Assembly (NCBI GenBank): GCA_028344335.1
Contig: JAOMAZ010000002.1
Location: forward strand, 380-64,379
Length of the DNA stretch: 64,000 bases
Direction: 5' to 3'
DNA from: Deltaproteobacteria bacterium
Lineage (GTDB): Archaea; Thermoplasmatota; Poseidoniia; Poseidoniales; Poseidoniaceae
The position numbers and the translations under genes are program-made. The notes below the pieces were generated by a model. That model had not been told where the DNA came from. It did not search any database and worked only from the letters and a program-made list of their open reading frames with translations. How positions within the stretch are numbered: the stretch's first letter is position 1; each line of letters begins with the position of its first letter. Positions 2 through 60,189 of the stretch are shown piece by piece.

Positions 2-2665
2 GCTACTCAAATTTACAATGTATCAGAATCTAGAGTTGCAGTTCAAAGTGAGCATATTCCAAATCCAGGTGGTACAGAATTATATCCAGTACAATTGAGT
101 TGGAGCGGAGCAGAGTGCCCGGCGGTTGTGAACGAATGTCTTGTTCTTCCTCCAGTATCTGAAAAGAAACCGAAGGGCATGCCATTATCGATGAACTTAT
201 TGGAAAATGCAACAACTTTCACTTTCGCAGATTTGACAAACTTTGACCTTGGGAAAGTCCATATCCAAAACCAGAATTCTGCATGGGGTGTGCAAGTACA
301 GAAGGGAGAGTTAGTCCGATTTAGAACAATGGCCAAGGGCAACCAAGTTGGGGGAGCATACTTACTGGTCACGGACGCAATAGGAAATGAATTGTACAAT
401 TTTACCACAGATGATTACGGCTACACACCTCAATTTACTCTACCTTCAAATTTCCACATCGATACTAATTGGAATCATCTTGCTAATGATCCTGGTGAAG
501 ATTCATGCAATGATGGAATTGATAATGATGGTGATGCAAATATCGATAATGCAGATAGCGATTGTGAAAATGGAAGAGAAAAGTCTATTTATTCTGTTTG
601 GGCATATAAATTTGAAAAGGGTTTAGCTGAGTATTCCTTTGAACTATCTACTGCAGTAGATGATGTATTATCATTGTCCAATTTGGAACCATCATTGACA
701 ATAAATCAACCTGATGGATTTTCATTCAAGAGAATTATTGAAATTTCGGGAACTGCCTGGGATGGTGTTTCAGGACCATATTTCAATGATCTCGATGCAC
801 AATGGTCGCAACAGGGTGTTGTTCGCCAAATTCAAATTAAGCCTCCCGGTGTTTTAGATTGGGATGACGCATATTTTGCCACTGACACCTCAGGTGCATC
901 TGGAGTAGTCAACAAATCTAATCATCCTTTCAGTTCTTGGTCATATGAATGGGATATGAGCAACAATCCAGAAGGTGATTATACATTCGAAATTAGAGCA
1001 TTTGATGGATTAGATTACAGCCCAACTTTCACGAGAATCTACAAACTGAATACAATTGCTCCAACCATTCTCCTTGATTCCCCAGCCAACCATTCCTCAC
1101 ATGATGATGGGAGAGTTATTTTCATTGGAAGAGCAACCGATCCATACACTGGAATTCAAGGTTCAGACATCGATAAGATTTGGTTCAGCATAGTAGGGCC
1201 AGATGGTATTCCTACTAGTACCAGTACACTTGGTGGAACCTCTTGGTCATGGGAATGGGATTTCTCTCCCCTGGTTAGTGGTGAATATGAGATAACAATT
1301 TGGGCCAGTGACTCTGATTTCTGCAAAAATGGACCAGGTGAGTGCTTAGCAAGAACGCTTGTATTGAATGTTGATACCGATAATGATATTCCATATGTAC
1401 AGATTTCAGAACCTTATGACACTCAAACTGTCACGGTCTCAACCACCACGCTGGTCTCTGGAACTTCTAGAGATACCGATGGACAAGTAACAAAGATTGA
1501 ATTCACAGTAACAAATCAAGACGGGCTTGAAGAGCAAAAACATCCGGCTACTATCACCATGGACAATATTCGATCTGATGGTTATTGGGAGACAACTTGG
1601 GATACCTCAGACCTTCTACATGGGCGGCAATATAGCTTAACAGCTCGCTCTTTCGATGGCTACAATTATTCCCCACCTTGGACAGTAACAGTTGAAATTG
1701 ATAATCCTCCTGAATTCGGTAATATTCCTCCAGTATTCAATGCCACAGGTTGGGTTGAAGTGATCAAGGTGTTCTGCGACTCAGGGTCGAATTCAGTTAA
1801 TCAATGTGGGGAATCTAAGACTCTAAATTTGTCTAAACACTTCAGTGATGAAGATCAACCAATGTCAACAGGTGATTTTATCGTTATAGATAACCCAGCA
1901 ATTTCAAGTGATGATCATTATGGTATCGTGATAACGATTACAGCCTCAGGAATTGCAACATTTGACACCATTAAGATGAGGGATTACAGCGATGATATTT
2001 CCGAATGGTCACTCAAAGGAGTACAGTTCCAATATATTGATGCCTCTGGTTCAAAGGCTACTTCATTATTAGTGGATTTCCATGTTGAATCTTCTAGTTT
2101 CACTTATCAAATGGAGGGAGATGGCGAAATTGCTGAAGATGGGACCCTTAAATTTTCAGGTGAAGGCAGGCCAGGTGCAAAGGTTACCGCCAGAATAAAG
2201 GATGGTGAGAGATCAATTGGAGAGACAACTGTTGGAGAAAATGGTCTTTGGGCTATGGAAATAAGTGGTAAAGAACTGAATGGAGTTGGTTCACACTCAA
2301 TCGTCTTTGAATACTCTGGAGTCTTGACAGAACCCGTTGCAATTCAAGTAGGAGAACTAGATGAAGGAATTGCAACTTGGGTGATAGTAGTTGGAATTTT
2401 GATTGCTGTCGTAATTCTTGGAGTAATGTTTGTTTTCTTCTTTGTTGAGTTTGAAGAATTCGGTGATGAAGATATGGACCAAGATACCACTTCTAAGGAG
2501 GACGACCCATATGCATGGGCAAAACAGGCACAAACAGAAGTTGCAACCCCTGTTGCAACACCTCAACCTACACCAGCACCTCAGCCAGTAGATTCTTCCC
2601 AATATCCAGGATGGATGTGGGATGCAGCCAATAATAAGTGGGTTCCTGACCCAAATCACCCTTAG
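2..2665 (+). CDS. Large secreted, C-terminally membrane-anchored surface protein; 5' end truncated by the window edge
   Basis: The frame is open from base 2; the listed start at 95 is an internal TTG. It has a Cys/Asp-rich motif (CNDGIDNDGDANIDNADSDCENG) and repeated Ig-like segments (e.g. SGTSRDTDGQVTKIEFTV). A hydrophobic TM (WVIVVGILIAVVILGVMFVFFFV) is followed by an acidic, Pro-rich tail ending YPGWMWDAANNKWVPDPNHP. Confidence 0.8.
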   Translation, partial: ATQIYNVSESRVAVQSEHIPNPGGTELYPVQLSWSGAECPAVVNECLVLPPVSEKKPKGMPLSMNLLENATTFTFADLTNFDLGKVHIQNQNSAWGVQVQKGELVRFRTMAKGNQVGGAYLLVTDAIGNELYNFTTDDYGYTPQFTLPSNFHIDTNWNHLANDPGEDSCNDGIDNDGDANIDNADSDCENGREKSIYSVWAYKFEKGLAEYSFELSTAVDDVLSLSNLEPSLTINQPDGFSFKRIIEISGTAWDGVSGPYFNDLDAQWSQQGVVRQIQIKPPGVLDWDDAYFATDTSGASGVVNKSNHPFSSWSYEWDMSNNPEGDYTFEIRAFDGLDYSPTFTRIYKLNTIAPTILLDSPANHSSHDDGRVIFIGRATDPYTGIQGSDIDKIWFSIVGPDGIPTSTSTLGGTSWSWEWDFSPLVSGEYEITIWASDSDFCKNGPGECLARTLVLNVDTDNDIPYVQISEPYDTQTVTVSTTTLVSGTSRDTDGQVTKIEFTVTNQDGLEEQKHPATITMDNIRSDGYWETTWDTSDLLHGRQYSLTARSFDGYNYSPPWTVTVEIDNPPEFGNIPPVFNATGWVEVIKVFCDSGSNSVNQCGESKTLNLSKHFSDEDQPMSTGDFIVIDNPAISSDDHYGIVITITASGIATFDTIKMRDYSDDISEWSLKGVQFQYIDASGSKATSLLVDFHVESSSFTYQMEGDGEIAEDGTLKFSGEGRPGAKVTARIKDGERSIGETTVGENGLWAMEISGKELNGVGSHSIVFEYSGVLTEPVAIQVGELDEGIATWVIVVGILIAVVILGVMFVFFFVEFEEFGDEDMDQDTTSKEDDPYAWAKQAQTEVATPVATPQPTPAPQPVDSSQYPGWMWDAANNKWVPDPNHP

Positions 2666-9017: not shown

Positions 9018-9184
9018 ATTTCGCGGTCTTGGAAACCGCTCCTCTCGTGCGTCTAGGCTATGCACGCCGCGGCATAGCCGCGGCTCCGTACATATCAGTT
9101 CGCCTAAAGAAGGTGATTTATGCTTGGAAATCCCTGCTCAGTGAGGTGACGGAGTGGTTTCTCCTTGATGCTGCTTTTGGTATC

Positions 9185-10000: not shown

Positions 10001-10185
10001 ATCGGGGATATGTACAGACCTTCAATTAACCCCTTAGTTTCATTTCTCTCAGCCCAATTTGAGCGTTGTTTATTGAATCTCGAAACATCAAGGACAACTG
10101 ACTTGTATGAACTATGCTCCATCAGTCTCATAAGCGGCTTTGCAGGGTTGCTATGCCTGACGGGGCTCCGTCACGGGTGCTTGAC

Positions 10186-15924: not shown

Positions 15925-18900
15925 ATGGCATTGGATAGGATGATTCAAAGCCCCAGTCATTACCGTAGACAACAGGGAGGCGTTAGCGTGGATGGGAATA
16001 AAAAATCCGCTTTGGCATTTTCTCTTGTAGTATTGATGATAATTTCAATTGGAACGCCTTTGCTCTCTCTAATTCCAGCGGTTGAAGCCGGCAGTGGTTC
16101 CGTTCGTCACATTTACACTTTTAGTGATGGTTCTGTCGAAGCAACTGCTCTCTATCAGGGCTCTTCCCCTGATGCTACCAATAGCATCACTATCCCGAAA
16201 GGGGCTGAAGTCACTGATATTGAAATGACTTTGCAAGGAGCATCAGCAACCGGTTGGTCCCAAGTCGAGTCGCTCGATAGGTCTGATTGGATGAAAGGTG
16301 ATGATAATAATATCGACAAGCGTTCTGACATATTGACATTGGGACTTGATTCTCCAAGTATTGAACTGGAAGGCCATGACCCTATGGAAAATTATGATTT
16401 GAATAATACCGCATGGAGAGATAATGGTAGTTTCGCTTTACGCCAACCTAACACGGGAAACGTATCTGAATCATTATTCGTTCCTCAATCTCAAGTTAGT
16501 GGAAATTCTTTCATGGCCCAAGGTCAAGGTGCAATTTTGAAGAATCATGGTTGGTTATTCATGTCAACATGGAGTGGTACAAACTTTGAGAACATGGTTA
16601 AGCGTTTATGGCCAAATAACGGTAGTGTTGAATCAACAATAACACTTGATAAGGCTAGTTGCACATTACCATCATTACCTACTAGCACCTATTATGCATC
16701 ATATGGGTTTAGAGATTGGACAGTTGCTCCAGGAGAAAAAATGTTTGGCATATTTTCATCATATCGATATCATTATGGTTCAACAGCACCTGTTCAATAT
16801 CATAGAGTATTAGAATTTGATATTCGTTATGACGATATTTGGACTTGCCTTGATTCATATGATATATCTCCACAATTCAGTGATTATACTGGAATTGGCT
16901 ATGACCGAGTAGAAGATTCTATTTGGGTTGCTCATGGAAGTCAAAGGAGATTAGTATCCTATGAGTTTGAAGGAGGCGGACAATTTAATAGAGGTTCTAC
17001 AATGTACACATTTTCAACTACCAGTAGCGGTATTCAGGATTGTGGTAAGAGTGGTGGATTTGTTCGCGGATTGGCAGTACATGATGACATGTTTTGGATG
17101 CGCTGTAAGAAAGGTTCGAGCTCATGGTCAACCACTGATACTCTGAATGCTTGGGCAGTTCCATCTTCTGGAACTCAATTAATTGGTCAAAGCAGTACTC
17201 GTGATATCAATCAACTTGGATATGGGCTAACCTATGATGGAGAACGCCTACATACGGTTGATTGCGGTTATTATTCATGGGGAGGCTCAACCTTATTCTA
17301 TCGTCAATTTGGTTCAGGTATTGCTTATCCATCAACACCTGCTCCTGGAACTTCGACTTGGCTATCAGAGCCAATAACTTCTGAAGAGAATATTCTTGCT
17401 GTAAATATGCAGACTCATTGGTCTGCACCCTCAACGGGAGACCGAGTAGATTTTTGGGTCAGCAGTGATAATGGCACACATTGGGAATCTGTCGAATCAA
17501 ATACCACAATTCACCTTTCAAACCCAGGTAAGATATTGTTGTGGAAGGCGAGGCTAATTGGTTCTAGCGCCGTATCTTGGTGGGTTAGTTTGGAATATGC
17601 AACTGCTTACATGACAACTGGGTCTTGGACATCACCTACTACTCCAACTGGAACTGAAATCGGTTTAGTTAGACCAATTTGGACATCGGATGTTCCGTCT
17701 GAAACTACATTGAAGGTGTTTGTTTCGAATGATAACGGCAGTAACTGGGATGAAGTGCCATCAGATACAGATTGGTCATTTACATCCAATGGTTCTCATC
17801 TCCGATACAGCATCATGCTTGAAACCTCAGATAATACCATCACTCCGAGCATAGACCAATTCATTTTACGATATCAAGAAGCCTTTCCAAACAAAGTTAG
17901 ACTCGATATTGGTGATGATAATACCTGGGACTGGTGGGGATTATCTTTCTTATCTCAAGGCGTAAGTGTGATAGCTAGTGATTCCTCAGTGGTTGGAGAG
18001 GAAGTGGTTAACCAACCTTCTATGGTAAGCGCATTGAATGCTCATATTCCAGCCAATGGAATTGGTAGCGTTGATATTCCAATTGCCATCAGAGCTGAAG
18101 AATCAGGCCGAGTGAAGTTAACTAACCTTGATGTTTCATACAGGATGATGTCTAGAGTATTAGATGCTAGCCTTGATGGTAATACTCTTGCACCTGATGG
18201 CGATTGGAGAACTCTTGAAGTTAGAATTGCAAGAGGTGATGAAGCTGATAGAATAATGAGTGTAAGCACAACTCTTGAGAATAGCCATGGTTCTTCTCCG
18301 GTATTATTTTGGCAATTGGGAGATGCTTGCAGCACTCTAAACGATGGTGATGGAATTTTTGAATTCGATGCAGGTAATTGTTCGTCCTTTGATAATCAAT
18401 ATGGAGTAAAGACAATTCGAATGCCAATAAGGGTTAACTGGAGTTGGGACGATGAAGTTGATATGCAGGCTTTGGTAACTGTTGACGATGACATTGGAAG
18501 AGCGGTTACAAATTGGCAGACTGAAAGTTTGAATTTGAGAGTTGAGAATGATATCCAATTAGATGGCCTGAGGGTGCACGATGCTACTGGAAGAGAATTA
18601 CTTAATTTTGATTGGATGAGAGGTGGTGAAAACATCACCTTTTCTGGAGGAATCCACTTTGAAGGAACCTCCATCAGCCCAGGTGCAGGAGAATTCATCA
18701 TACAAATAAGTGGTCAAAATCTAACTCCGGACGGCGACCCAGATGGGTCATCTGTTATTTTGTATGAAGAGCCTAATCCATCTCATGGGGAGTATAATCT
18801 GACTTTTATTGCGCCTATGGAATCTACCCAAGGCGGAATGTTATTCCAAGTTGCAGTTGTCAATACTAGCATTGGATCTAGTTTTGCCAACCCATATTAC

Positions 18901-21366
18901 AATACAATCCGTGTAGTTCTTGATGGAAATAGCCCATTGCTGATGTCAGCGAGCCCTATGGACGGCTCCCAAATGCACAAAGGTTCTCCAGATCAGGCTA
19001 TTGAAATCATTATCCAAGATAGTGTAGAGCCTCCAACAAACATCCAGTTGCATTATTGGTTGGGTTGTAAATCGAGGCACGAAACTTGCTCAGACACCAA
19101 TTTCAACAATTTACCGGATGCATTGGAATACAGAACGCTCACCTTGACATCCCCAGAAGTCAGAACAGGTGGGATCAACATCTTTGAGGGTTCGATAGAT
19201 GACAGTATGCTAATTCATGGTGAGAAAGTAGTCTTCCACGTAACTGGAATAGATGCACAAGGGAATTCAGTCGCCATGGGCGGGGCTAGTGTTTGTCTAG
19301 ATTCTACAGGTACTGTTTGCGGCTCACAATTTGGGCAGAATCCCCCTGATTGGGATGCAGCACTAGTAGTCTATACCATTAGAGAAGAATTCGAGCCGGA
19401 ATTATCTCCTGAAAATTCCACCATAGTAGGCCACGATGACAAGGCACCTTTACACCCTGGAATTCCATATAATTTAGTTCTGCAAATTGGCGACATGAAT
19501 GGTTGGAGAGATATTGATTCTGTCCAGGTCGCTTTAGCTGGAGATTTTGATGACGAAGAAACCACCATTAGTATCGACATCTTTGAAGGAGAGATGGGCC
19601 AAGTAGATATGACTCTTCACTCTGGAGGTGAGGGCCTTGCAGTTAGTAATCTGTATAGCCTAATAGTAGAAGATATAGAGAATTCTTCTCGAGTTTTCAT
19701 CAACATAAGATTCCAGTTAACTTGGTTATTCCCTGAAGTCTGGGATACTGATGGAGAATCCCATTTTATTCCCAAATTAAAGGTTGAGGACTTACCTTGT
19801 GGTCTTGAATTGAATGTTCCATGTAATGAAGTTAGAGTTGGAATGGGTAATGATTTATGGAGTCTTGATAACGACCTGAGGTTTGATCTTGAACAAGGCC
19901 ACATGAGAGCGGTTGAACTGCGTAATGGAATCGATCATTTTAATGAAGAAGGAGATGCCACTCTCATTGGCTCAGGACAAGCTTTGCGTTTTTCTGGAAA
20001 GGTACTATTCAGTGAAGATTCGATTTCTGCTCCAGCAGGCGCTTTCGATATAGTGCTTGGTGACTTAGAGCACCAATGGCGCACATCACCTCGAGAAGGT
20101 GGTTATTTCACAATGGATATGTTAGTTCCAGAGGTAAGGAGTGGCCATCTTGACTTGATGGTAACGATGGAAGACATGCCTGGCCTTGCAACTGATGAAA
20201 CAGCAATGGATGTGCGATTGAGGCTGGAAGTTGATCACCAAAAACCTGTTATTGAAGATATTTCCATTGCTGGAATAAGTAGTTCAAATTACATCCCTCT
20301 CAATAGCGCATCACAAGCGAGAGTTGTCCTATCGACAAGCGATGACCATGGTTTTGATTTGAACAATCATCCAACGTTACACTATGTGATTAGAGCCGGT
20401 GCAAGTGAGGTAAGCCGAGGAAGTCTACCACTATCACAAGGAAATGATTTGGACGGCGAGGTATTTTGGAGTGCGGACCTTGATTTGACTGATGCAGGAG
20501 CAACGCAAATCCTACCGACCTATGCACTCGACACATGGATAACTGGTTCTGATGCAAGTGGTAATCCTTTTGATGCCAATGGAAATACAGAATCTTACCC
20601 TGTTGCCTCATTCCTTTTCACAAGAACTGGTCCGCTTCTAGACTTGATGGCAGAAGATACTACCATCTCATGGAGCGACCCAAGTCCCGCCCCTGGTGAT
20701 GTCGTTAGCCTTGAAGTTCATGGATTCAATAGTGTTCCACAAATTGGGGACTTGAGATTTACTTTGGAAAGAAAAGTAGCAGGTGAGTGGATTGAAGTTT
20801 CCATGCGTAATACAACCGTTAAAGGTGTAAGTGAAATGCATATTATTTTGGAATATGCTGTACCATTAGATGCAGAGGAGACCCTTGAATTCAGAGTTAG
20901 AGAATTTGATGAATTATTTGAACTAGACCGGCGTAGCACTTCCCCACTGACTATTGAAAAAGATGTTCAACGAGATGGAGATGCATTAGCGAATCAAGTA
21001 TCTAGCTCGGGATTGAGTGTCATTCTCTATCTTGTTGCCTTAGCATCCACCGTATTTGGAATCTGGATGATGGTTCTTTATCGTGAATCAGTTAGAGTTG
21101 ATGAAGATGAACAACTTGACCAAACCAGTGATGTGATGGATAACTTAGAAGTGAAAAAAGATCTGCCAAGTCTTGAATCTTCATCCCCCCCTCCTCCCAA
21201 TATGTCGGCGCCATTACCACTAGGAGAGCCCGTTCCAGTTTTACCTCCAGCACAAAGCCATCAAGGAGTGGCTCCAGTACCAACTGAGGGCTTGCCACCT
21301 GGTTGGACTCCGGAACAGTGGGGACATTATGGCTGGACTTGGCTTGAGCAGCAGGGGCGGGCCTGA
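15925..21366 (+). CDS. Giant (1813 aa) surface protein with Asp-box/BNR motifs, C-terminal TM anchor and conserved cytoplasmic tail
   Basis: The N-terminal signal/anchor is KKSALAFSLVVLMIISIGTPLLSLIPAVEAGSG. Asp-boxes are SSDNGTHWE and SNDNGSNWD. The TM is GLSVILYLVALASTVFGIWMMVLY. The tail is acidic, then Pro-rich, then GLPPGWTPEQWGHYGWTWLEQQGRA. Confidence 0.8.
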   Translation: MALDRMIQSPSHYRRQQGGVSVDGNKKSALAFSLVVLMIISIGTPLLSLIPAVEAGSGSVRHIYTFSDGSVEATALYQGSSPDATNSITIPKGAEVTDIEMTLQGASATGWSQVESLDRSDWMKGDDNNIDKRSDILTLGLDSPSIELEGHDPMENYDLNNTAWRDNGSFALRQPNTGNVSESLFVPQSQVSGNSFMAQGQGAILKNHGWLFMSTWSGTNFENMVKRLWPNNGSVESTITLDKASCTLPSLPTSTYYASYGFRDWTVAPGEKMFGIFSSYRYHYGSTAPVQYHRVLEFDIRYDDIWTCLDSYDISPQFSDYTGIGYDRVEDSIWVAHGSQRRLVSYEFEGGGQFNRGSTMYTFSTTSSGIQDCGKSGGFVRGLAVHDDMFWMRCKKGSSSWSTTDTLNAWAVPSSGTQLIGQSSTRDINQLGYGLTYDGERLHTVDCGYYSWGGSTLFYRQFGSGIAYPSTPAPGTSTWLSEPITSEENILAVNMQTHWSAPSTGDRVDFWVSSDNGTHWESVESNTTIHLSNPGKILLWKARLIGSSAVSWWVSLEYATAYMTTGSWTSPTTPTGTEIGLVRPIWTSDVPSETTLKVFVSNDNGSNWDEVPSDTDWSFTSNGSHLRYSIMLETSDNTITPSIDQFILRYQEAFPNKVRLDIGDDNTWDWWGLSFLSQGVSVIASDSSVVGEEVVNQPSMVSALNAHIPANGIGSVDIPIAIRAEESGRVKLTNLDVSYRMMSRVLDASLDGNTLAPDGDWRTLEVRIARGDEADRIMSVSTTLENSHGSSPVLFWQLGDACSTLNDGDGIFEFDAGNCSSFDNQYGVKTIRMPIRVNWSWDDEVDMQALVTVDDDIGRAVTNWQTESLNLRVENDIQLDGLRVHDATGRELLNFDWMRGGENITFSGGIHFEGTSISPGAGEFIIQISGQNLTPDGDPDGSSVILYEEPNPSHGEYNLTFIAPMESTQGGMLFQVAVVNTSIGSSFANPYYNTIRVVLDGNSPLLMSASPMDGSQMHKGSPDQAIEIIIQDSVEPPTNIQLHYWLGCKSRHETCSDTNFNNLPDALEYRTLTLTSPEVRTGGINIFEGSIDDSMLIHGEKVVFHVTGIDAQGNSVAMGGASVCLDSTGTVCGSQFGQNPPDWDAALVVYTIREEFEPELSPENSTIVGHDDKAPLHPGIPYNLVLQIGDMNGWRDIDSVQVALAGDFDDEETTISIDIFEGEMGQVDMTLHSGGEGLAVSNLYSLIVEDIENSSRVFINIRFQLTWLFPEVWDTDGESHFIPKLKVEDLPCGLELNVPCNEVRVGMGNDLWSLDNDLRFDLEQGHMRAVELRNGIDHFNEEGDATLIGSGQALRFSGKVLFSEDSISAPAGAFDIVLGDLEHQWRTSPREGGYFTMDMLVPEVRSGHLDLMVTMEDMPGLATDETAMDVRLRLEVDHQKPVIEDISIAGISSSNYIPLNSASQARVVLSTSDDHGFDLNNHPTLHYVIRAGASEVSRGSLPLSQGNDLDGEVFWSADLDLTDAGATQILPTYALDTWITGSDASGNPFDANGNTESYPVASFLFTRTGPLLDLMAEDTTISWSDPSPAPGDVVSLEVHGFNSVPQIGDLRFTLERKVAGEWIEVSMRNTTVKGVSEMHIILEYAVPLDAEETLEFRVREFDELFELDRRSTSPLTIEKDVQRDGDALANQVSSSGLSVILYLVALASTVFGIWMMVLYRESVRVDEDEQLDQTSDVMDNLEVKKDLPSLESSSPPPPNMSAPLPLGEPVPVLPPAQSHQGVAPVPTEGLPPGWTPEQWGHYGWTWLEQQGRA

Positions 21367-21393
21367 GTGCAAACTCCAAGTAATGAAGAAAAA

Positions 21394-21816
21394 ATGACAA
21401 ATTTGCACGAGCGAATCGTGCACATGGTCAGACAATTAAATATCCCAGTTGTAGAAGTTAGTCTCGTTCTGTCAAAATACATCCGAGTATTAATAGACAC
21501 ATTACAGGCAAAGGCAATCGAGTTAAATGAAGAATTACCTCCACGTCTAATGCACTCATGGCCCTTGGAAGAGGAGATACAAACTCAATCCAAAGATTTT
21601 GATTTTGATTTAGAAAAAGTCTTGTCGCTTGTAGATGCTGATAGAATGGATATTCTTGATACATTAATTAGAACTACAATTAATGATGAAAAATTGGTGC
21701 TTACTGATTCTCTCTTATTGATGAGGCAATGGGAAAAGGATGTACGGCAACGCCTTGCCCTAGTTGAGTCGCCTGGACAATTATTTTCACCGATGGAGCT
21801 CTCAGAGGATCATTGA
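21394..21816 (+). CDS. Hypothetical small acidic protein
   Basis: The ORF directly abuts the preceding stop. ATG at 21394 (MTNLHERIVHMV) is preferred over GTG at 21367. I recognise no motif. Confidence 0.4.
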   Translation: MTNLHERIVHMVRQLNIPVVEVSLVLSKYIRVLIDTLQAKAIELNEELPPRLMHSWPLEEEIQTQSKDFDFDLEKVLSLVDADRMDILDTLIRTTINDEKLVLTDSLLLMRQWEKDVRQRLALVESPGQLFSPMELSEDH

Positions 21817-39559: not shown

Positions 39560-42034
39560 CTAAATATCAAGGTCATCTAAATCTTCATCCTTTGGTAAGG
39601 GGGATTTTTTGCTTTCCATCAAACCTTTTGGATCATGGCGAGTTGTTCTTTCATTTTCGCTATCTACGCCAGGTAGGTCGAGGTTTGATGAATGTGTGGT
39701 AGAACTACCCTTTAGCATTAAACCGGCAGCCATTTCATCCATTTTGAGAATGACTTCCTTGGCATCGTGATGATCCAAAACGGTAGCAGCTGCCTCAACT
39801 AATTTTTCATCAACTGGAGTTGATGTTTGTTTTCTCGGGCCACTACTAAGGCTGAATGCCGCGCTGAATGAACCTGCATCCATACTCGGACTTTCAACCA
39901 ATTCCACTTGCTTTTCTCCACTCTCTGCAAATTTAGACTCAATCTCGCTAAACTCTTCAGGTGGTTTAGGTTTTCTTGCCTCTTCTAATTCTTTGATAAT
40001 ACGTTGTTCCTCCTCAATTTTCCTTCTCCTCTGTAGGGCGATGTGAATTGCAAAAATAGAGAATATTATAGCAAAGAAAGTGTACGAATGGCGACTCCAA
40101 GTTTCATCAATGAAGCCAAACATTGGTGTAAAGTCGAACCATGTCTCTTCTTCAACTGGCTGATTAGGTTGCCAAGGTGTACCAAGCCAATCCTCATTGC
40201 TTGATGTATTAACTTCAGCGCCATCAGGGTCGGAAAAACTCCACATGCTAACGTTCATCCATAAGGTCCCATTTAGAAGTTCATCAACAGGTAATTTGGC
40301 CCAAGAACGGAAGGTTATATTCTGCCCGTGATTTATGTCGATAATTTGGAAATCTCGCAATTGGTCTGCCTCTAATTCAAACTCAGCACCATCTGGTGGG
40401 CTCAAACCATGTTCAGTGTAATGACTGACTGTTAAGACCACTATTAACCCGTCTTTACCATTGCCGAGATTCTTTACCGTGCAAGACATTGTCATCAAAC
40501 CATCAGCATCAACCTCTTGAATTACTTCTTCGAAAACCCAATTAGAATCTAAAGCAATACTGATATTAATTTTCAATGTATCAACTATATCTCCCTCTGC
40601 AGGACGTAATTTCCAAATAACTTCGGCTTGAGTAAAGGCTTCGATTCCTTCATTTATAGTAATTTCAATCCCTGGAATCTCAACCGACTCTCCTCTTGCG
40701 AGTGAAATTTGGCTGGAGGGTTGATTAACAACTACCCATTCAGGAGATTCAGAAAATAAAGTGAAGGAATCAATGAAATTTCCGCTATTATTGACTATTA
40801 ATGAGCCACTACAAGTTTCACCTGGCTTGATACTTCGACATTCCAATCCGTCTAAATCAATACTTCCATTACGAATCAATTCAATATTGGCAAACATATC
40901 AACACTGACATCCCTTGTAGGGGCGGATGGACTGTAAGCACGAACTCTAATTCCTGCAGAACCTGATGCCACTGCCGGTGCAAGAATCGAGATATCGATG
41001 AAAGCACTTGCATTGACTGCGAGTAAAGATGCATTATATTCTGTTGATATTCTAAAAGTCCAACCTGAAATATTGAGAATATCTGCTTTTTCTCCAACCG
41101 GCAACCCATTTTGGTCTAATTCCATAATTTCTATTTCCATTCTGGATTGTGAATTACCTACATTTCTAACTTTTAGTTGTAGTTTCCCAGTATCCTCTGG
41201 ATCAAGAGTAATATTTCCTTGATGCCAATCGATAGTTGCATTGTGAAAAGTTTTTGGAATAATTGTAAATGAATATGATGATACAGCAGAATCAAGAGAG
41301 GAAGTAGCAGTCATCGTCCATGTTAATCCATCTCCTGAAGTTGGACTTCCATTAATGACTGGGGGAACCCAGACTTGGATATTCACCCACCCAATCGCAC
41401 CTGCCTCTATACTCATCAGGCTTCCATTCCAAGGCTCATCTCCCAAATCCCATTGAATTCTCCATCCTACATCACCTTCTAATTTTATCAGCGGTTCATC
41501 CAAAGTAGTTCCATTATTGCTGAGATTTAGAGCGAAAGAGAATGGAGTGTCTGGATTGATATTGAAGGTACTTCCTGCACTTCCCCAACCTAATGAGCTT
41601 TCTATATCAACAGAAATATCGATACTCATGGAATGAAATAATTCTTGGCTACTATTGTGCCTCCATTCAAGATTAATAGTTTGCATTCCCAAGTTTGCAC
41701 CGGAATCTGCTGTTAAGGTGAAAAGCAGTTGACCTAATGCACCTGAATTCATTTCAATACCTTCACTTGGTAAACCTGCGATAGAAATTGAGTTGAGGGA
41801 CTGTTGCACACTGACATCAGTGATAATTTGTTCATCCTTTAGGTTATGCCAGATTAATGAAACTTGTTTTACTTCATCTCGATGAATATGCACAATTTGA
41901 GGATTAGAGACAGTGAAATCAGACTCTCTAGCAGAATTGTTCTTTTTTTCATATGTAGACGAAGACAAAGAAGTGTCAACAATGCCAGTGGTGGTTGAGA
42001 TTAGTAAAATAATCACCAGCAACTGAGCCTTCAT
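39560..42034 (-). CDS. Large secreted protein with repeated beta-sandwich (CARDB/NEW3-like) modules, TM anchor and charged cytoplasmic tail
   Basis: The signal peptide follows the ATG at 42034 (MKAQLLVIILLISTTTG). Repeated segments of the type ...LxxxNxGN... occur (NLSNNGTT, VRNVGNSQS, VNNSGNF, VKNLGNGKD). The TM is YTFFAIIFSIFAIHIAL, followed by RRRKIEEE. Confidence 0.65.
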   Translation of the reverse strand: MKAQLLVIILLISTTTGIVDTSLSSSTYEKKNNSARESDFTVSNPQIVHIHRDEVKQVSLIWHNLKDEQIITDVSVQQSLNSISIAGLPSEGIEMNSGALGQLLFTLTADSGANLGMQTINLEWRHNSSQELFHSMSIDISVDIESSLGWGSAGSTFNINPDTPFSFALNLSNNGTTLDEPLIKLEGDVGWRIQWDLGDEPWNGSLMSIEAGAIGWVNIQVWVPPVINGSPTSGDGLTWTMTATSSLDSAVSSYSFTIIPKTFHNATIDWHQGNITLDPEDTGKLQLKVRNVGNSQSRMEIEIMELDQNGLPVGEKADILNISGWTFRISTEYNASLLAVNASAFIDISILAPAVASGSAGIRVRAYSPSAPTRDVSVDMFANIELIRNGSIDLDGLECRSIKPGETCSGSLIVNNSGNFIDSFTLFSESPEWVVVNQPSSQISLARGESVEIPGIEITINEGIEAFTQAEVIWKLRPAEGDIVDTLKINISIALDSNWVFEEVIQEVDADGLMTMSCTVKNLGNGKDGLIVVLTVSHYTEHGLSPPDGAEFELEADQLRDFQIIDINHGQNITFRSWAKLPVDELLNGTLWMNVSMWSFSDPDGAEVNTSSNEDWLGTPWQPNQPVEEETWFDFTPMFGFIDETWSRHSYTFFAIIFSIFAIHIALQRRRKIEEEQRIIKELEEARKPKPPEEFSEIESKFAESGEKQVELVESPSMDAGSFSAAFSLSSGPRKQTSTPVDEKLVEAAATVLDHHDAKEVILKMDEMAAGLMLKGSSTTHSSNLDLPGVDSENERTTRHDPKGLMESKKSPLPKDEDLDDLDI

Positions 42035-42132
42035 CAAGAGGCTGGTAGGCACCTTGCTCTTCAACCATTTCGTTAATTCGTGTATGAAAAATAATCGGTA
42101 ACCTCATCTGTAGCAACCTCTCTCGATGAAAC

Positions 42133-45926: not shown

Positions 45927-46976
45927 ATGGCCGTTATCAGAGTTGCAATCAATGGATATGGTACGATTGGCAAAAGAGTTGCAGATGCGGTTGCCGCACA
46001 AGATGACATGGAATTAGTGGGAGTAACTAAGACCAGCCCTTCGTTTGGCTGTGATTTAGCAGTTCGAAAAGGATATCCATTGTATTGCACATTTGATGAT
46101 TCTGCAAAGATATCCGCATTCGCTGCCGAAGGCTATAGTTGCCTCGGAGGTCTATCAGACCTGCTCTCTGCTTGTGAAATTGTCATTGATTGCTCTCCTG
46201 GAAAGGTTGGTGCTGATAATTTGGCAAAATACAAAGCGGCTAAAGTCAAGTCTATATTCCAAGGTGGCGAGAAACATTCCTTGACAGGGTTGTCCTATAC
46301 CTCATCTGCTAATCACCAACAAAACCTCGGCGCAGATTGTACCCGTGTAGTTTCTTGTAATACAACTGGTTTGTCTCGAACTTTGATGCCTTTACACAAT
46401 CACTGTTCAGAGATAGGTGGTATTTCGGTGAATTGTGTTATGATTCGTCGAGCAGCCGACCCAGGAGATTCCTCCAAAGGACCAATTAATGCAATAAAAC
46501 CTGTATTGAAAGTACCTTCTCACCATGGTCCAGATGTTATGACCGTTCAGCCTGACATTAGGATTAACAGTTTAGCAGTGGCTGTTCCAACTACTATTAT
46601 GCACGTTCATGCCATGACAGTAGAACTTCCTGAAGGCCATGGACTAACTCAAGATTCAATCTTACAAATGTGGCATGATTCGCCTCGCATCATCATAATG
46701 AATGGGGCGAAAACTAGGATAACAACGACTGCCGAAGTTATGGAGTTGGCAAGAGATATAGGGAGAACCTGGGGTGACTTACACGAAATATTCGTTTGGG
46801 AGGATGGAGTTAGTCTGGATGAAAACACCCTCTATTATTTCCAGGCAATACATCAAGAAAGCGATGTTATTCCTGAAAATATTGATGCTATCAGAGCATT
46901 GATGAATAGTGAAGTAGAATGGCAAACAAGTGTTGCAAAAACCGATGCAGCAATTGCACGATTCAATAATATTTGA
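45927..46976 (+). CDS. gap: Glyceraldehyde-3-phosphate dehydrogenase, archaeal type II
   Basis: The N-terminus is MAVIRVAINGYGTIGKRVADAV and the catalytic Cys lies in VVSCNTTGLSR. The first 234 codons of the tracked 583-aa ORF are antisense shadow of the neighbouring gene. Confidence 0.92.
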   Translation: MAVIRVAINGYGTIGKRVADAVAAQDDMELVGVTKTSPSFGCDLAVRKGYPLYCTFDDSAKISAFAAEGYSCLGGLSDLLSACEIVIDCSPGKVGADNLAKYKAAKVKSIFQGGEKHSLTGLSYTSSANHQQNLGADCTRVVSCNTTGLSRTLMPLHNHCSEIGGISVNCVMIRRAADPGDSSKGPINAIKPVLKVPSHHGPDVMTVQPDIRINSLAVAVPTTIMHVHAMTVELPEGHGLTQDSILQMWHDSPRIIIMNGAKTRITTTAEVMELARDIGRTWGDLHEIFVWEDGVSLDENTLYYFQAIHQESDVIPENIDAIRALMNSEVEWQTSVAKTDAAIARFNNI

Positions 46977-47044
46977 AAACAAATTTCACTCATGGTGCCG
47001 ATTCCATCAATAAGGGAATCAAGGTCGCAATAGGTGTGAGTGGC

Positions 47045-50000
47045 ATGGCAGGTTCTCAGCGATTCACCATTTTCATCTTGGTATTACTCTTACTCTCACC
47101 ATTCTCGTTCGTGGTAGGAGAGAGTCCTTCTGAAGATGAGGAGAAGGTAAATCCAACTCTCTGGACTGAAATTTCACCTTCAGGAATGATTCCTGTAGAT
47201 TTGCGGGAATCAACTGGAGTACTACACCTTTCAACTGGTGCCTTCGATCCATTACTGCAAGAGGATCCAACCCTTACAATTCTCCCAACCGGTTTTTCTT
47301 CTCAGGTTGTTCTTATTCAACTTCATACTACAGATGCAATGGTCTTGGCAGAATTAGCGGATATATACTCACTGTCAATACTTGACCATATGCCCGATGA
47401 AGCCTGGATTGTAAGAGTCCCAAGCCAAGACAGAATACCTGCATTGGAAAATGAATCATCTGTACGTTGGATTTCCCCTTTGAATATTGCTTGGAGAATG
47501 TCTGAAGGTTTACAACAAGTGTGGGTCGAACCTCCATCTTTACTCGATATTTCTTTGATATTAGCCCCTGACTTGAGTGAGGTTGGCATTGAGCAATTAG
47601 AGACCAGACTGAAAGATTTGCAAGCCAGAGAGGTTTGGTGTGGTTGGACCCAATGTGAGATATGGGGGATGGAATGGAATAATGGTCAAATCACAAACCT
47701 AATTGCAGATGATTCAATTCTGCATATTTCACTCTTAGAAAAATCTGCTCCCCTAAATTCCTATGCTGCACAGACGGTGGAATTAGACGAGGTACTTGGT
47801 ACACTGAACATGAACCTTGATGGATCGGGAGAAGTGATCGGTGTATCGGATACTGGAATCGATTCCTCTCATCCCGACTTGAATCAGAAGATTCTTTCAA
47901 TTAAGACTCAATATGGGTTAGACAGCTCTTCCTTAGACAAAAATACTGGCCATGGAACTCATGTTGTGGGAACCATAATCGGTGATGGAATTAGTGATTC
48001 TGAGGCCAAGGGATTGGCATCTGGTTCATCGATGCACTTTCAAGCATTGGAGCATGACAACACCGGTTTCTTTGGACGTCAAGGCTCATTATATGATATG
48101 CTAAGAGATTTTTACACCGCTGGGGCCAGAACAGGTTCCAATAGTTGGGGAGCCCCTGGAGCTCAAGGTGAATATACCAGTGATTCTCGAAGTGTTGATC
48201 ACTTCGCTAATGACTATGATGATTTCACGGTATTATTTGCAGCAGGTGAATCAAATGTCGGGGTTGCTGCCCCTTCAACCGCCAAGAATGTTCTATCCAT
48301 TGGTGCTGCAACTTCAGAACGACCTAACTCATTATCAGCCGGTGAAGTTTGGAATCAAAGTGCCAATGGCTTCAGTGCAGATGGGAGAATTAAACCAGAC
48401 TTAGTTGCTCCAGGGATTGAAATTTGTAGCACAATGTCAGAACAAGCATTATCTCCACTCGGGGTTGATTGTGGAAGTGGTATACACTCTAATGGCGATT
48501 CACTTTACAGGTCATCTAATGGCAGTAGCCATGCCACTGCAGTTGCTGCTGCTTCGGTTTTATTGACAAGAGAATTTCTTAGAGAAGAAGCCAATGTTAA
48601 TGCTCCAAGTGCGGATTTAGTTCGAGCTACTTTGATTAATGGGGCTCGTGATTTAGGTGTTCAAAACATTCCAAATGCTCAGGAAGGCTGGGGTCAAATC
48701 GATCTTTCTAACAGTTTTTCACCAAAAGATGGAAGCACTGCTTTAGCATCCTTTTATGACACAAATATTTCACTTTCGCCCGGTTTTGGTTTCATTTATG
48801 GTTTTGACTTTAATGCAGCCCATGGAATTTCAATCACTCTGGTTTGGACCGATGTAGCAGGCTCTGCTTCAGCACTCCAATCAGAGTCAAGACTAGTCAA
48901 TGACTTGGATTTGATATTAACAGCACCTGATGGCACGATTTGGTTTGGAAATGATTTCTCAAATGGGCTTTCGGCTACTACTGGTATAGTTGATTCCACG
49001 AATGTTGTTGAACGAATCGAATTAGCTCCTGGAGCCGCCCCTCAAAGTGGCACATGGAGTATTCAGGTTGCAAATAGAGCAGGCTCAGAGCAATCCTTTG
49101 CATTGGTAGTTGTTGCTGATGGGGATCATGATCCTGCTTCTGACTTGACTGTTTTCGATGAAAGTATTCGTCCAAGTTCCACCGAACCTTTGGTTAATGA
49201 ATTGATTTCCATCAGCGTTGCATGGACTAATCAAGCACCATTAGTGACTGGAAGTTACAAGGTTACATTGGTCGATACAACAACTGGAACAACACTTTCG
49301 GAAATGGTCCGAAGTGGCACCGCTGGAGGGCAAATAGAATCAGCATCGATTACCCATGCTTTCAGCACAACTGGTGCTCATATTCTTCGGTTAACTATTG
49401 ATGTTGATGACCAAATTGCTGAATTAAATGATGGAAATTCCGGTTATGATAATAATGTTAAACAAATAACCATCAACGTTAGTGCATTAGGTGTAAGGCT
49501 AATTCCACTCCTAGATGATGGGAGTGAACCAACAACTCCAGAGCAGAATTCTGCTGCTGTGATGAAATCTTTTGAAGCAAACACAGATTCACAAATTGAA
49601 ATCAATATGATTCTTCGTCATGAAGGAACTGGAAGTGAATCAGTAACCTTGACAAGTGGCTCTGTACGAATGCTCAATCCTCAACGAGAGGGAGTCTTCC
49701 AAACCCCTCCAGATTCTTGGACTAAGTCGATCAATGTTAGCAGTCCGTTGAGTATGGCGCCTGCTGGAGATATTGGTGATGAACAGTATTTCACCTTAAC
49801 ATTATTAGATGAAGATGCAGACCCCAATGGAGATATTCCAAGGTATGCCTATGCTGGCACATATGTGATAGATTTGGAGGCTCGTTATCAATTACAGCCA
49901 CTTGTCAAACATAAATTACGAATAACATTCGTGGTTAACGAAGTGGATGATGTTGACGTTGTGATTGCTGGAACATCTGGATTAAGTGCTAAACCAGGTG

Positions 50001-57179: not shown

Positions 57180-57199
57180 TGGTACGGAAAGAAGTACCA

Positions 57200-60083
<2,884 letters not shown>

Positions 60084-60106
60084 TTTTTTTCACTTCGTTC
60101 CGGAAA

Positions 60107-60137: not shown

Positions 60138-60189
60138 TTGATTTACTCAAACATGCGACACGCGTCGCGTATCCGATTCGAGAGAAGAT

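What the first reader, a model, noticed from the sequence alone, without database searches (positions are those of the whole stretch)
21010..21366. Shared cytoplasmic tail module on unrelated giant surface proteins
The 1813-aa Asp-box protein and the 1640-aa S8 protease (tail at 51440-51964) have ectodomains that look unrelated by eye. Both nevertheless end with the same architecture.
- The order is a single TM helix, basic residues (YRESVR / RLRKVNR), an acidic stretch, a Pro-rich stretch (SSSPPPPNMSAPLPLGEPVPVLPP / LPPPGPAPS...LPPLLKSPPPQPAQVP), and then a near-identical terminal peptide.
- The terminal peptides are GLPPGWTPEQWGHYGWTWLEQQ and GLPAGWTMQQWQHYGEEWLKKQ. That gives 13 of 22 positions identical, with both placed 2-4 residues from the stop codon.

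The opening LP(P/A)GW resembles the start of eukaryotic WW domains. The Trp spacing also recalls the short GW...W motif of actinobacterial DUF2510-type sequences. Both resemblances are from memory only.

A conserved module on the cytoplasmic side of giant exoproteins suggests a docking, sorting or clustering signal, or a link to a cytoplasmic partner. It would be distinct from known archaeal C-terminal signals such as PGF-CTERM, which lie at the membrane.
Basis: partly seen in the sequence, partly recalled or inferred. Interest (0 to 1): 0.7.

Follow-up and report, generated by a model that had tools for sequence, protein, structure and literature searches.

The report
Shared cytoplasmic tail peptide, Poseidoniales
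Many unrelated surface proteins of the abundant, uncultured ocean archaea called Marine Group II end inside the cell with the same 26-33-residue tryptophan-rich peptide. No database describes it, and it most likely plugs these proteins into one common, still unknown, intracellular partner.

Summary

- **Similarity.** The two window proteins, ORF A (15925-21366) and the S8 protease ORF B (46973-51964), have unrelated ectodomains. Their tails match at BLASTP E=6e-12.
- **Motif.** The shared element is PP[LIV]PxxGLPxGW[TS]x[ED]QWxx[YF]Gxx[YW][LIVM][DE] at the extreme C-terminus. It lies 20-140 residues behind a single TM helix, on an acidic, Pro-rich linker that is probably disordered.
- **Recurrence.** A motif profile finds 636 cluster representatives among 1.84 billion proteins. 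A degenerate DNA pattern (0.03 hits expected by chance) hit at least 120 genome loci, all Poseidoniales.
- **Carriers.** There are at least six unrelated ectodomain groups, plus small membrane proteins.
- **Topology.** Cytoplasmic placement is supported by the positive-inside rule (111 of 122). It is also supported by a SAP-domain type II protein that carries the motif on the SAP side of its TM.
- **Known families.** Pfam, NCBIfam, PDB and the literature hold no such family. A weak likeness to the first half of WW domains fails the WW membership test.
- **Function (inferred).** It is most likely a docking peptide for a common cytoplasmic partner, which was not identified.
- **Further tail classes.** A second tail motif (HPGWLWD....WVPDP) and an acidic LDDLDL end also exist. 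S8 paralogues carry either Trp motif, which suggests an interchangeable tail code.

The parts
15925..21366 (+). ORF A. 1813-aa type I surface protein with two Asp-box-like motifs and no Pfam family. It carries the tail motif.
   Evidence: 120 full-length orthologues at 47-91% identity, all ending in the motif.
16012..16074 (+). ORF A N-terminal hydrophobic core of the signal peptide (LAFSLVVLMIISIGTPLLSLI).
   Evidence: It is the only hydrophobic 21-mer apart from the C-terminal TM.
21016..21078 (+). ORF A single TM helix, followed by the basic residues YRESVR.
   Evidence: AF2 gives a helix with pLDDT above 90.
21118..21147 (+). ORF A juxtamembrane acidic element DQTSDVMDNL, a short predicted helix. 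It is conserved only within the ORF A family.
   Evidence: Alignment A3 has invariant D, T, V, K, P columns. AF2 helix 39-46. Not related to the S8-family element (hhalign probability 3%).
21148..21270 (+). ORF A Pro-rich linker, hypervariable in length and sequence, probably disordered.
   Evidence: gapped, unconserved. AF2 pLDDT 50-67 with no secondary structure.
21271..21348 (+). ORF A terminal motif APVPTEGLPPGWTPEQWGHYGWTWLE (positions -6 to +19). Five more residues precede the stop.
   Evidence: AF2 helix over PEQWGHYGWTWLEQQGR, pLDDT 84-87.
46973..51964 (+). ORF B. S8 subtilase + CARDB/Ig-like surface protein, 1663 aa from TTG. The likely ATG start is at 47045. It carries the tail motif.
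   Evidence: Orthologues and paralogues appear in the loci.
47822..48694 (+). ORF B Peptidase_S8 catalytic domain (residues 284-574).
   Evidence: Pfam PF00082, E=8.8e-32.
51461..51523 (+). ORF B single C-terminal TM helix, followed by RLRKVNR.
51524..51874 (+). ORF B tail linker. It holds acidic S8-family-specific elements (LVAPGSH, RRED..D.G, SGSVSSEEVAAALAQS) and then a Pro-rich stretch with GLPP-type repeats.
51875..51952 (+). ORF B terminal motif PPVPAGGLPAGWTMQQWQHYGEEWLK. Three more residues precede the stop.
   Evidence: In the AF2 motif-only model the extended segment has pLDDT 83 and the helix MQQWQHYGEEWLKK has pLDDT 86-90.
2603..2662 (+). Related but distinct item: the C-terminus YPGWMWDAANNKWVPDPNHP of ORF 95-2665. 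That ORF has Big_7 Ig domains, a TM and an acidic/Pro-rich tail, and its 5' end is cut by the window. This is tail motif 2.
   Evidence: At least 120 metagenome loci carry the same terminus.
39563..39586 (-). Related but distinct item: the acidic-hydrophobic C-terminal end EDLDDLDI of ORF 39560-42064 (834 aa, TM near aa 659-677). The same kind of end follows the Trp motif in PKD/CARDB carriers elsewhere.

Best explanation
The last 26-33 codons of both genes encode a Poseidoniales-specific peptide module. Its consensus is PP[LIV]P-x-x-GLP-x-GW-[TS]-x-[ED]-QW-x-x-[YF]-G-x-x-[YW]-[LIVM]-[DE].

Anatomy. The module sits in the cytoplasm at the end of a long, acidic, Pro-rich tail behind a single TM helix of Sec-exported surface proteins. 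The tail is probably disordered. The module is predicted to form an ordered extended Pro-rich segment that leads into one amphipathic aromatic helix.

Portability. The module occurs on at least six unrelated ectodomain groups and on small membrane proteins. It was also inserted into the cytoplasmic linker of one subclade of a type II SAP-domain membrane protein.

Proposed mechanism. The helix, with its invariant Gly, Gln and Trp residues, is a docking peptide recognised by one common cytoplasmic partner. Functionally different surface proteins (proteases, PKD/CARDB and TSP3/propeller adhesin-like proteins) would thereby be coupled to the same intracellular machinery for anchoring, clustering, positioning or signalling.

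Shown here: the existence of the module, its conservation, its C-terminal position, its lineage restriction, its modularity, and the evidence for cytoplasmic topology.

Inferred only: the helix fold, the docking function and the existence of a partner.
For: - Statistical reality.
- Conservation island. In 120 orthologues of ORF A found by full-length homology (47-91% identity), P-3, G0, L1, P2, G4, W5, Q9, W10 and G14 are invariant. The linker in front is unalignable.
- Protein-level selection. The invariant Gly, Pro and Leu positions use all synonymous codons, across loci with GC of 34-62%.
- Spread. There are 636 representatives at E<=1e-3 and 176 at E<=1e-10 among 1.84e9 proteins. The motif starts within 30 residues of the end in 125 of 148 of the listed top hits.
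- Genome scan. The DNA pattern has a chance expectation of 0.03. It hit at least 120 loci, and 121 of 122 frames have the motif 20-75 aa from the stop with a hydrophobic segment 32-143 aa upstream.
- Taxonomy. All loci are Poseidoniales of both families. The four loci labelled bacterial are mis-binned.
- Unrelated carriers. There are six ectodomain clusters: S8/CARDB, a 1190-aa family without Pfam hits, propeller+TSP3, PKD/CARDB, the ORF A family and a 360-aa family. Multi-pass and tandem-motif proteins also occur.
- Cytoplasmic side. K/R counts are 2.93 after the TM against 0.48 before it, with 111 of 122 carriers higher after. The SAP-motif-TM-ectodomain proteins place the motif next to a nucleic-acid-binding domain.
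- Gain by insertion. Only one SAP subclade has the motif: 14 of the 120 listed clusters.
- Fold. Two independent AF2 runs give the same helix, with pLDDT 84-90, and an ordered preceding segment, with pLDDT 83-86. Helical periodicity beats beta periodicity.
- Specific recognition. An invariant Gly lies in the middle of the hydrophobic face and there is an invariant Gln. These favour a specific protein interface over generic lipid binding (inference).
Against: - No partner was identified. No neighbouring gene family recurs across carrier families.
- AF2 on short peptides is biased towards helices, and I could not inspect coordinates.
- Some invariance in the 362-instance logo is imposed by the search pattern. 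Only the orthologue set and the flanking positions are unbiased.
- Nothing experimental exists for any Poseidoniales protein, because the order is uncultured.
Confidence: 0.6

Rival explanations
1. Homotypic clustering motif. The amphipathic aromatic helices of different tails bind each other as helical bundles. Alternatively, a WW-like half-domain binds the Pro-rich PPLP linkers of neighbouring tails. Either way, surface proteins would be cross-linked into patches without a separate partner.
For: - The hydrophobic stripe at M7, W10, Y13/G14, Y17 and the residue at +21 has 3-4 spacing with a small Gly in the face, which is typical of helix-helix packing.
- P0250 carries two motifs in tandem.
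- The best PDB sequence match is the SAV1 WW2 domain. I recall from memory, not tested here, that this domain forms a homodimer.
- S8-family linkers contain repeated GLPPxG and PPLP units.
Against: - The helix is short, about 14-17 residues.
- Family-specific flavours of the motif (WKWYGHEWLAKYG, QYYGQQYLD, NHFGWQYVE) are tolerated. A shared third-party binding site explains that more easily than mutual fit does.
- No multimer prediction could be run.
Confidence: 0.15
2. In-plane membrane anchor. The Trp/Tyr-rich amphipathic helix folds back onto the cytoplasmic leaflet and acts as an interfacial anchor or a curvature or lipid-domain sensor, not as a protein-binding site.
For: - Trp and Tyr favour membrane interfaces (established knowledge).
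- The helical hydrophobic moment is 0.25, against 0.18 for shuffled sequence.
- The long flexible tether would allow the helix to fold back.
Against: - The helix and linker are net acidic (E at +8, D/E at +19, linker about 17% D+E). Basic residues occur only at the very end, which suits lipid binding poorly.
- The invariant Gly, Gln and PPxPxxGLPxG lead-in are more specific than lipid binding needs.
- The moment is only moderate.
Confidence: 0.12
3. Diverged or truncated WW domain. The motif is homologous to the first two strands of a WW domain and works as a Pro-ligand-binding beta-hairpin.
For: The motif profile's best PDB hits are WW domains: SAV1 WW2 at E=0.022, ungapped over 28 residues (GLPxGW, [FY]G at +8/+9, Y at +12), then NEDD4 at 0.22 and Itch at 0.58.
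Against: - The E-values are marginal.
- The Pfam WW model finds none of 32 motif peptides at E<=10.
- The protein ends 17-20 residues after the first Trp, so the third strand, the second Trp (+20-22) and its Pro cannot exist.
- AF2 predicts a helix twice.
- Beta periodicity is weaker than helical periodicity.
Confidence: 0.06
4. Nascent-chain element. The Pro/Trp-rich last ~30 codons act inside the ribosomal exit tunnel, as an arrest or termination-pausing peptide like SecM or TnaC, to coordinate the end of translation with export of the large ectodomain.
For: - The whole motif, including the PPxPP lead-in, occupies the last ~30 residues. That is about the length of the exit tunnel (established knowledge) when the stop codon is reached.
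- A second, different Trp-rich motif sits at the same distance from the stop.
Against: - The motif works in other positions. It lies 35-87 residues from the stop when an acidic extension follows.
- It lies about 650 residues from the stop, N-terminal to the TM, in the SAP family.
- The number of residues after the motif varies from 1 to 10.
Confidence: 0.04
5. Chance or compositional similarity of two Pro/Trp-rich tails.
For: None beyond the low-complexity Pro-rich context.
Confidence: 0.01

Closest known systems
WW domain (Pfam PF00397), especially the atypical SAV1 WW2
   Same: It opens with (G)LPxGW. An aromatic-Gly pair follows 8-9 residues after the Trp, and an aromatic-aliphatic pair at +12/+13. 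WW domains are the top PDB sequence matches. The motif sits in a Pro-rich context.
   Different: The matches are marginal (E=0.02-0.6), and Pfam WW does not hit. There is no room for strand 3, the second Trp or its Pro. A helix is predicted rather than a beta-sheet. WW domains are Pro-ligand readers, whereas this looks like a tethered terminal peptide.
Prokaryotic C-terminal sorting signals (PGF-CTERM/archaeosortase, LPXTG/sortase, GlyGly-CTERM/rhombosortase, T9SS CTD)
   Same: It is one short C-terminal tag shared by many unrelated secreted or surface proteins of a lineage. The lineage restriction suggests a dedicated recognition partner.
   Different: Those tags are signature-TM-basic cluster, with the signature on the outer side immediately before the TM, and they are cleaved. 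T9SS instead uses a folded extracellular domain. Here the signature is 20-140 residues after the TM on the cytoplasmic side, and no NCBIfam sorting-signal model hits.
Eukaryotic cytoplasmic-tail short linear motifs of type I receptors (integrin NPxY-talin, calsyntenin W-acidic-kinesin light chain TPR, clathrin-box LLDLD-type ends)
   Same: The architecture matches: large ectodomain, single TM, basic stop-transfer, disordered acidic/Pro-rich tail, and short conserved islands reused on unrelated proteins. Several motif classes combine: the Trp motif, the acidic LDDLDL end and a second Trp motif.
   Different: There is no sequence homology. The organism is an archaeon with none of those eukaryotic partners known. 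At 26 conserved positions the module is longer than a typical SLiM. The partner is unknown.
DUF2510 (Pfam PF10708), short GW...W modules of actinobacterial membrane proteins
   Same: It is a short Trp-rich module on membrane proteins.
   Different: There is no HMM match at E<=10 for 32 motif peptides. The spacing and conserved residues differ. Motif 2 of this genome (PGWxWD....WxPDP) looks more like it by eye, but it also gives no Pfam hit.

Membership tests
WW domain (PF00397) | Profile match at or near the family threshold | tested here: not met
   hmmscan of 32 motif peptides at E<=10 gives no WW hit. The reverse search of the motif profile against PDB gives WW domains only at E=0.022-0.58.
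WW domain (PF00397) | Two signature Trp residues 20-22 apart, with a Pro 2-3 residues after the second Trp | tested here: not met
   The proteins end 17-20 residues after the first Trp. The other Trp residues are at +5 and often +12, and no Pro follows.
WW domain (PF00397) | Three-stranded antiparallel beta-sheet of about 35-40 residues | tested here: not met
   AF2 predicts a single helix in two runs, with pLDDT 84-90. Helical moment exceeds beta moment. This is prediction only, with no experimental structure.
DUF2510 (PF10708) | Profile match | tested here: not met
   No hit at E<=10.
PGF-CTERM / archaeosortase-type and other exosortase/sortase sorting signals | Tripartite signature-TM-basic cluster at the extreme C-terminus, with the signature immediately N-terminal to the TM | tested here: not met
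   The motif lies 32-143 residues C-terminal to the TM. A basic cluster follows the TM, but the protein then continues for 60-170 residues.
PGF-CTERM / archaeosortase-type and other exosortase/sortase sorting signals | Match to curated NCBIfam/TIGRFAM sorting-signal models | tested here: not met
   The only NCBIfam hit with sorting-related flavour is a sub-threshold match in the ORF B ectodomain: choice_anch_T, 34.6 bits against a cutoff of 70. Nothing hits either tail.
Cytoplasmic-tail short linear motif / docking peptide (functional class, not a homology family) | Conserved island inside a non-conserved, probably disordered region | tested here: met
   Alignment A3 and the AF2 pLDDT profile. 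The linker is 19-132 residues long and P/A/E/S-rich.
Cytoplasmic-tail short linear motif / docking peptide (functional class, not a homology family) | Reuse on unrelated proteins, with gain or loss independent of the rest of the protein | tested here: met
   There are six unrelated ectodomain clusters. The motif was inserted in one SAP subclade only. S8 paralogues carry motif 1 or motif 2.
Cytoplasmic-tail short linear motif / docking peptide (functional class, not a homology family) | Located on the cytoplasmic side | tested here: met
   Positive-inside rule in 111 of 122 carriers. Signal peptide plus a single TM. Co-location with a SAP domain in the inverted topology. All of this is computational.
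Cytoplasmic-tail short linear motif / docking peptide (functional class, not a homology family) | A defined binding partner | not testable with these tools
   The neighbourhood analysis found no shared neighbour. No multimer prediction or proteome-wide screen was available.
PP-fold / Trp-cage-like miniprotein (structural analogy considered) | Polyproline-II segment packed on an aromatic helix | tested here: inconclusive
   The Pro-rich lead-in has pLDDT 83-86 without secondary structure, next to the helix. Coordinates could not be inspected, and Foldseek against PDB gave 0 matches.

The most novel reading that the evidence does not exclude
Poseidoniales use an interchangeable cytoplasmic 'tail code'. 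At least three portable C-terminal peptides exist: GLPxGWTxEQWxxYG, HPGWLWD....WVPDP and an acidic LDDLDL end. They are tethered by disordered linkers and assign different surface proteins, including paralogous S8 proteases, to different intracellular machineries. Those machineries could be a cortical scaffold or transmembrane signalling to TPR/STAND regulators. This would be a prokaryotic counterpart of the SLiM-based tails of eukaryotic adhesion receptors, in a wall-less, uncultured and globally abundant archaeal order.
Probability: 0.3. Interest if true: 0.85.

Novelty: new variant of a known kind. Interest (0 to 1): 0.64.

Why it matters
Marine Group II archaea are among the most abundant microbes in the surface ocean. 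They are uncultured, so their cell envelope and surface biology are known only from gene lists.

A single peptide shared by the cytoplasmic ends of their proteases, PKD/CARDB proteins and TSP3/propeller adhesin-like proteins says that these proteins are handled together inside the cell.

- **An experimental handle.** It gives a concrete bait: a 33-residue peptide to fish for the partner. It also gives a simple in-silico marker (profile A2) to enumerate the anchored surface proteome of any Poseidoniales MAG.
- **A possible new kind of signal.** Known prokaryotic C-terminal tags act at or outside the membrane. A cytoplasmic, tethered docking peptide reused across families, with a second and third tail class and tail swapping between paralogues, would be a new type of surface-protein organisation for archaea.
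- **Evolutionary interest.** It would also bear on how receptor-tail logic arose.

Tried and rejected
1. **Word-index search.** A search with a 2-sequence tail profile found only one fragment. It was too insensitive, so I replaced it with a full HMM scan.
2. **Pfam and NCBIfam.** Nothing hit either tail or 32 motif peptides, even at E<=10.
3. **Foldseek.** The 40-residue model gave no PDB matches.
4. **Linked partner gene.** I clustered 1461 neighbouring ORFs over 120 loci. Every recurrent neighbour is tied to one carrier family only. The TPR protein at 55091-56722 and Adk simply follow ORF B synteny.
5. **Shared juxtamembrane element.** The ORF A and S8 family elements are not related (hhalign probability 3%). 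Only the terminal motif is common to both.
6. **Viral carriage.** There were 0 hits in IMG/VR.
7. **Bacterial occurrence.** Four loci labelled Salipiger, Yoonia or Verrucomicrobiales are mis-binned Poseidoniales contigs.
8. **SAP family.** I tested whether it universally carries the motif. It does not: only one subclade does. I reinterpreted this as a gain by insertion.
9. **Literature.** Searches for the motif strings and for MGII tail motifs found nothing relevant. Rinke et al. 2018 (PMC6461757) mention thrombospondin and flotillin genes and adhesion, but no tail motif.
10. **Antisense ORF.** The ORF at 21092-21400 (-) overlaps the tail. I consider it spurious, because synonymous variation fits the + frame.

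Full report
**What is there**

The window is from a Marine Group II (Poseidoniales) archaeon. It carries an archaeal 23S-5S rRNA pair, and named relatives of its proteins are Poseidoniaceae, Poseidonia or Poseidoniales MAGs.

ORF A (15925-21366, 1813 aa) has no Pfam or NCBIfam family. It has two Asp-box-like S.D.G..W motifs. ORF B (46973-51964) is a Peptidase_S8 + CARDB protein.

Each protein has exactly one N-terminal hydrophobic signal segment and one C-terminal TM helix. In both, the TM is followed by basic residues, an acidic stretch, a Pro-rich stretch and a near-identical terminal peptide. The terminal peptides share 14 of 22 positions, and they end 3 and 1 residues before the stop.

**Is it more than chance?**

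Yes.
- BLASTP of the two tails gives E=6e-12.
- The local alignment score is 145, against 35 +/- 6 for 3000 shuffles.
- The last 40 residues alone score 115, against 30 +/- 6.
- The ectodomains are indistinguishable from shuffled controls.

**Conservation**

A full-length search with ORF A returned 120 orthologues at 47-91% identity. This search is not biased towards the tail. Apart from one truncated sequence, every one ends in the motif.

In 81 unique C-termini, P-3, G0, L1, P2, G4, W5, Q9, W10 and G14 are invariant. The consensus is PP[LIV]PPxGLPxGW[TS]x[ED]QWxx[YF]Gxx[YWF][LIVM].

The linker between the TM and the motif cannot be aligned and varies greatly in length. Across 122 genomic instances the invariant Gly, Pro and Leu positions use all synonymous codons, in loci with GC of 34-62%. 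The constraint is therefore on the peptide, not on DNA or RNA.

**Spread**

- **Protein search.** A 33-position profile (A2) scanned against 1.84 billion cluster representatives gave 636 hits at E<=1e-3 and 176 at E<=1e-10. In 125 of 148 of the listed top hits, the motif starts within 30 residues of the end.
- **Position.** In 121 of 122 frames the motif lies 20-75 residues from the stop. A hydrophobic segment lies 32-143 residues upstream.
- **Taxonomy.** All loci are Poseidoniales, covering both Poseidoniaceae and Thalassarchaeaceae. Four contigs labelled as bacterial MAGs are mis-binned. For example, one is 94.5% identical to a Poseidonia contig, and another is collinear with Poseidoniaceae loci.
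- **Viruses.** No viral contig carries the pattern.

**Carriers**

The ectodomains fall into six groups with no detectable similarity between them:
1. S8 subtilases and CARDB proteins, including ORF B.
2. A 1190-aa family without Pfam hits.
3. Beta-propeller and TSP3-repeat proteins.
4. PKD/CARDB proteins.
5. The ORF A family.
6. A 360-aa family.

The motif also ends small type I proteins and multi-pass membrane proteins. One N-terminally anchored protein has two tandem motifs. Single genomes hold several carriers from different groups, for example L011, L017 and L023 of one Poseidonia MAG. Public records call these proteins "hypothetical protein", "PKD repeat protein" or "S8 family serine peptidase".

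**Topology**

Three lines of evidence put the tail in the cytoplasm.
- **Positive-inside rule.** K/R residues average 2.93 in the 15 residues after the TM, against 0.48 before it. The count is higher after the TM in 111 of 122 carriers.
- **Signal peptides.** Carriers have N-terminal signal peptides.
- **The one exception to C-terminal placement.** L056 encodes SAP domain (PF02037, E=5.4e-9), acidic linker, motif, TM, then a roughly 550-aa C-terminal domain. This is the mirror topology, with the motif on the same side as a nucleic-acid-binding domain.

Within this SAP family, only the 14 clusters at least 73% identical to L056 have the motif. The other 105 have EAEV-type acidic repeats at that position. 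The motif was therefore gained by insertion into a cytoplasmic linker. It behaves as a portable module that does not strictly need a free C-terminus.

**Predicted structure**

AF2 on the ORF A tail (35-sequence alignment) gives the following:
- a TM helix with pLDDT above 90;
- a short juxtamembrane helix;
- about 55 residues without structure, with pLDDT 50-67;
- a terminal helix over PEQWGHYGWTWLEQQGR, with pLDDT 84-87;
- a preceding segment, PVPTEGLPPGW, that is ordered but not helical (pLDDT 86).

A motif-only run on ORF B gives the same picture: lead-in pLDDT 83 and helix MQQWQHYGEEWLKK at pLDDT 86-90.

Helical periodicity (moment 0.25, against 0.18 shuffled) exceeds beta periodicity (0.12). 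The hydrophobic stripe at M7, W10, Y13, Y17 and the residue at +21 contains the invariant G14, and the invariant Q9 sits at its edge. This is an inference.

**What it is not**

- **Databases.** Pfam and NCBIfam give nothing for the tails or for 32 motif peptides at E<=10. Foldseek gives nothing.
- **WW domain.** The motif profile's best PDB sequence matches are WW domains: SAV1 WW2 at E=0.022 (ungapped), then NEDD4 and Itch. Membership fails, however. The match is marginal, there is no room for the third strand, second Trp or Pro, and a helix is predicted.
- **PGF-CTERM-type signal.** The signature is far behind the TM on the inside, not just before it on the outside.

**Mechanism**

The best-supported reading is a tethered docking peptide for a common cytoplasmic partner. 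Three observations point that way:
- the strict invariance of small and polar residues within an amphipathic helix;
- the obligatory PPxPxxGLPxG lead-in;
- reuse on functionally different surface proteins, together with lineage restriction.

Together these suggest one dedicated recognition system, as with other lineage-specific tags. I could not find the partner, and neighbourhoods are family-specific. The rivals are homotypic clustering, an interfacial membrane helix, a WW-like hairpin and a nascent-chain element. They are listed with their evidence elsewhere in this report. The last one is contradicted by the internal and extended placements of the motif.

**Beyond the finding**

The same genome uses other tail ends.
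- **Acidic end.** ORF 39560-42064 (-) ends in EDLDDLDI. This is the acidic-hydrophobic end that follows the Trp motif in PKD/CARDB carriers. Eight of 916 ORFs have such an end, against 0 after shuffling.
- **Second Trp motif.** ORF 95-2665 ends in YPGWMWDAANNKWVPDPNHP. A pattern for this second motif also hit the 120-locus limit in marine metagenomes. It sits 16-26 residues from the stop in all but one frame (48 in L203), with an upstream TM in 115 of 120 frames.
- **Tail swapping.** Carriers of the second motif are a roughly 1450-aa family and an S8 paralogue family. The paralogues are 33% identical over about 800 residues to the S8 proteases that carry motif 1. Homologous ectodomains thus carry alternative tails.
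- **No known family.** Motif 2 has none either.
- **A regulator next door.** An HTH-AAA_16-TPR (STAND-type) gene, at 2723-5263 in the window, lies immediately downstream on the same strand in 99 of 99 informative loci of the 1450-aa family. It is not next to the S8 paralogues. This is a lead, not evidence.

**Verdict**

The interpretation (a cytoplasmic tail module on unrelated surface proteins, distinct from PGF-CTERM) is supported. The function remains inferred.

This is an undescribed, lineage-specific tail module. As a kind, it is a new variant of "shared C-terminal tag on surface proteins", with an unusual cytoplasmic, tethered placement. There are hints of a broader tail code.

Noticed in passing
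window 95-2665 (+), C-terminus 2603-2662; loci L121-L240: A second, different Trp-rich tail motif, [HY]PGW[LIM]WDxxxx[EQ]W[VI]PDP[DN][YF]. It sits 16-26 aa from the stop behind a TM and an acidic/Pro-rich linker. It hit at least 120 marine metagenome loci. Its carriers are a ~1450-aa family and an S8 paralogue family whose relatives carry motif 1, so tails are swapped between paralogues. It has no Pfam or PDB relative.
   Followed up: partly
window 39560-42064 (-), C-terminal codons 39563-39586; L024, L058, L074, L081, L089, L101, L108: An acidic-hydrophobic extreme C-terminus (EDLDDLDI, LLDDLDL, DDLDLDF, PWEFDL). It occurs alone in the window protein. In PKD/CARDB carriers it occurs as a 30-50-aa extension after the Trp motif. 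Eight of 916 ORFs have it, against 0 in shuffled controls. It looks like a third portable tail module.
   Followed up: partly
window 2723-5263 (+): An HTH_Crp_2 + AAA_16 + TPR (MalT/STAND-like) protein is encoded immediately downstream, on the same strand, of the motif-2 surface protein. This holds in 99 of 99 informative metagenome loci. It is a possible tail-reading regulator, or it may be plain synteny.
   Followed up: partly
window 95-22665: A conserved surface-protein island. Its order is: motif-2 protein, TPR/STAND, two N-terminally anchored proteins (5770-8004 and 8001-9065, pilin-like N-termini by eye), metallo-beta-lactamase-fold protein, 1924-aa TSP3-repeat protein without a TM (10114-15888, ending 37 nt before ORF A), ORF A, then two small ORFs. 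The same order recurs in many metagenome loci. The secreted TSP3 protein may work with the anchored ORF A.
   Followed up: partly
ORF A family tails (window 21118-21147) and S8 family tails (window 51524-51700): Each carrier family has its own additional conserved juxtamembrane tail elements. The ORF A family has DQTxxV..M...K..P.I. The S8 family has LVAPxxH, RR..ALD and SGEVSxEEIxxALxQS. ANSMYGGxxxIFQQ is shared by members of clusters 1 and 2. SLSAxYGAVxAAP occurs in other members.
   Followed up: partly
S8-family linkers, e.g. window 51680-51800; L023, L037, L055, L064, L086: The Pro-rich linkers contain repeated GLPPxG, KGLPPxG and PPLP units. These look like degenerate copies of the N-terminal half of the motif.
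   Followed up: no
L056:1042-3465 and P0270-P0389: A conserved Poseidoniales family of type II membrane proteins with an N-terminal cytoplasmic SAP domain, an acidic repeat linker, a TM and a ~550-aa extracellular domain. This would tether a DNA/RNA-binding module to the membrane.
   Followed up: partly
L006, L049, L062, L079: Four contigs deposited in bacterial MAGs (Salipiger, Verrucomicrobiales, Yoonia) are Poseidoniales sequence. These are bin contamination in public records.
   Followed up: yes
window 57196-60311: An archaeal 23S and 5S rRNA pair with no 16S gene adjacent within the window.
   Followed up: no
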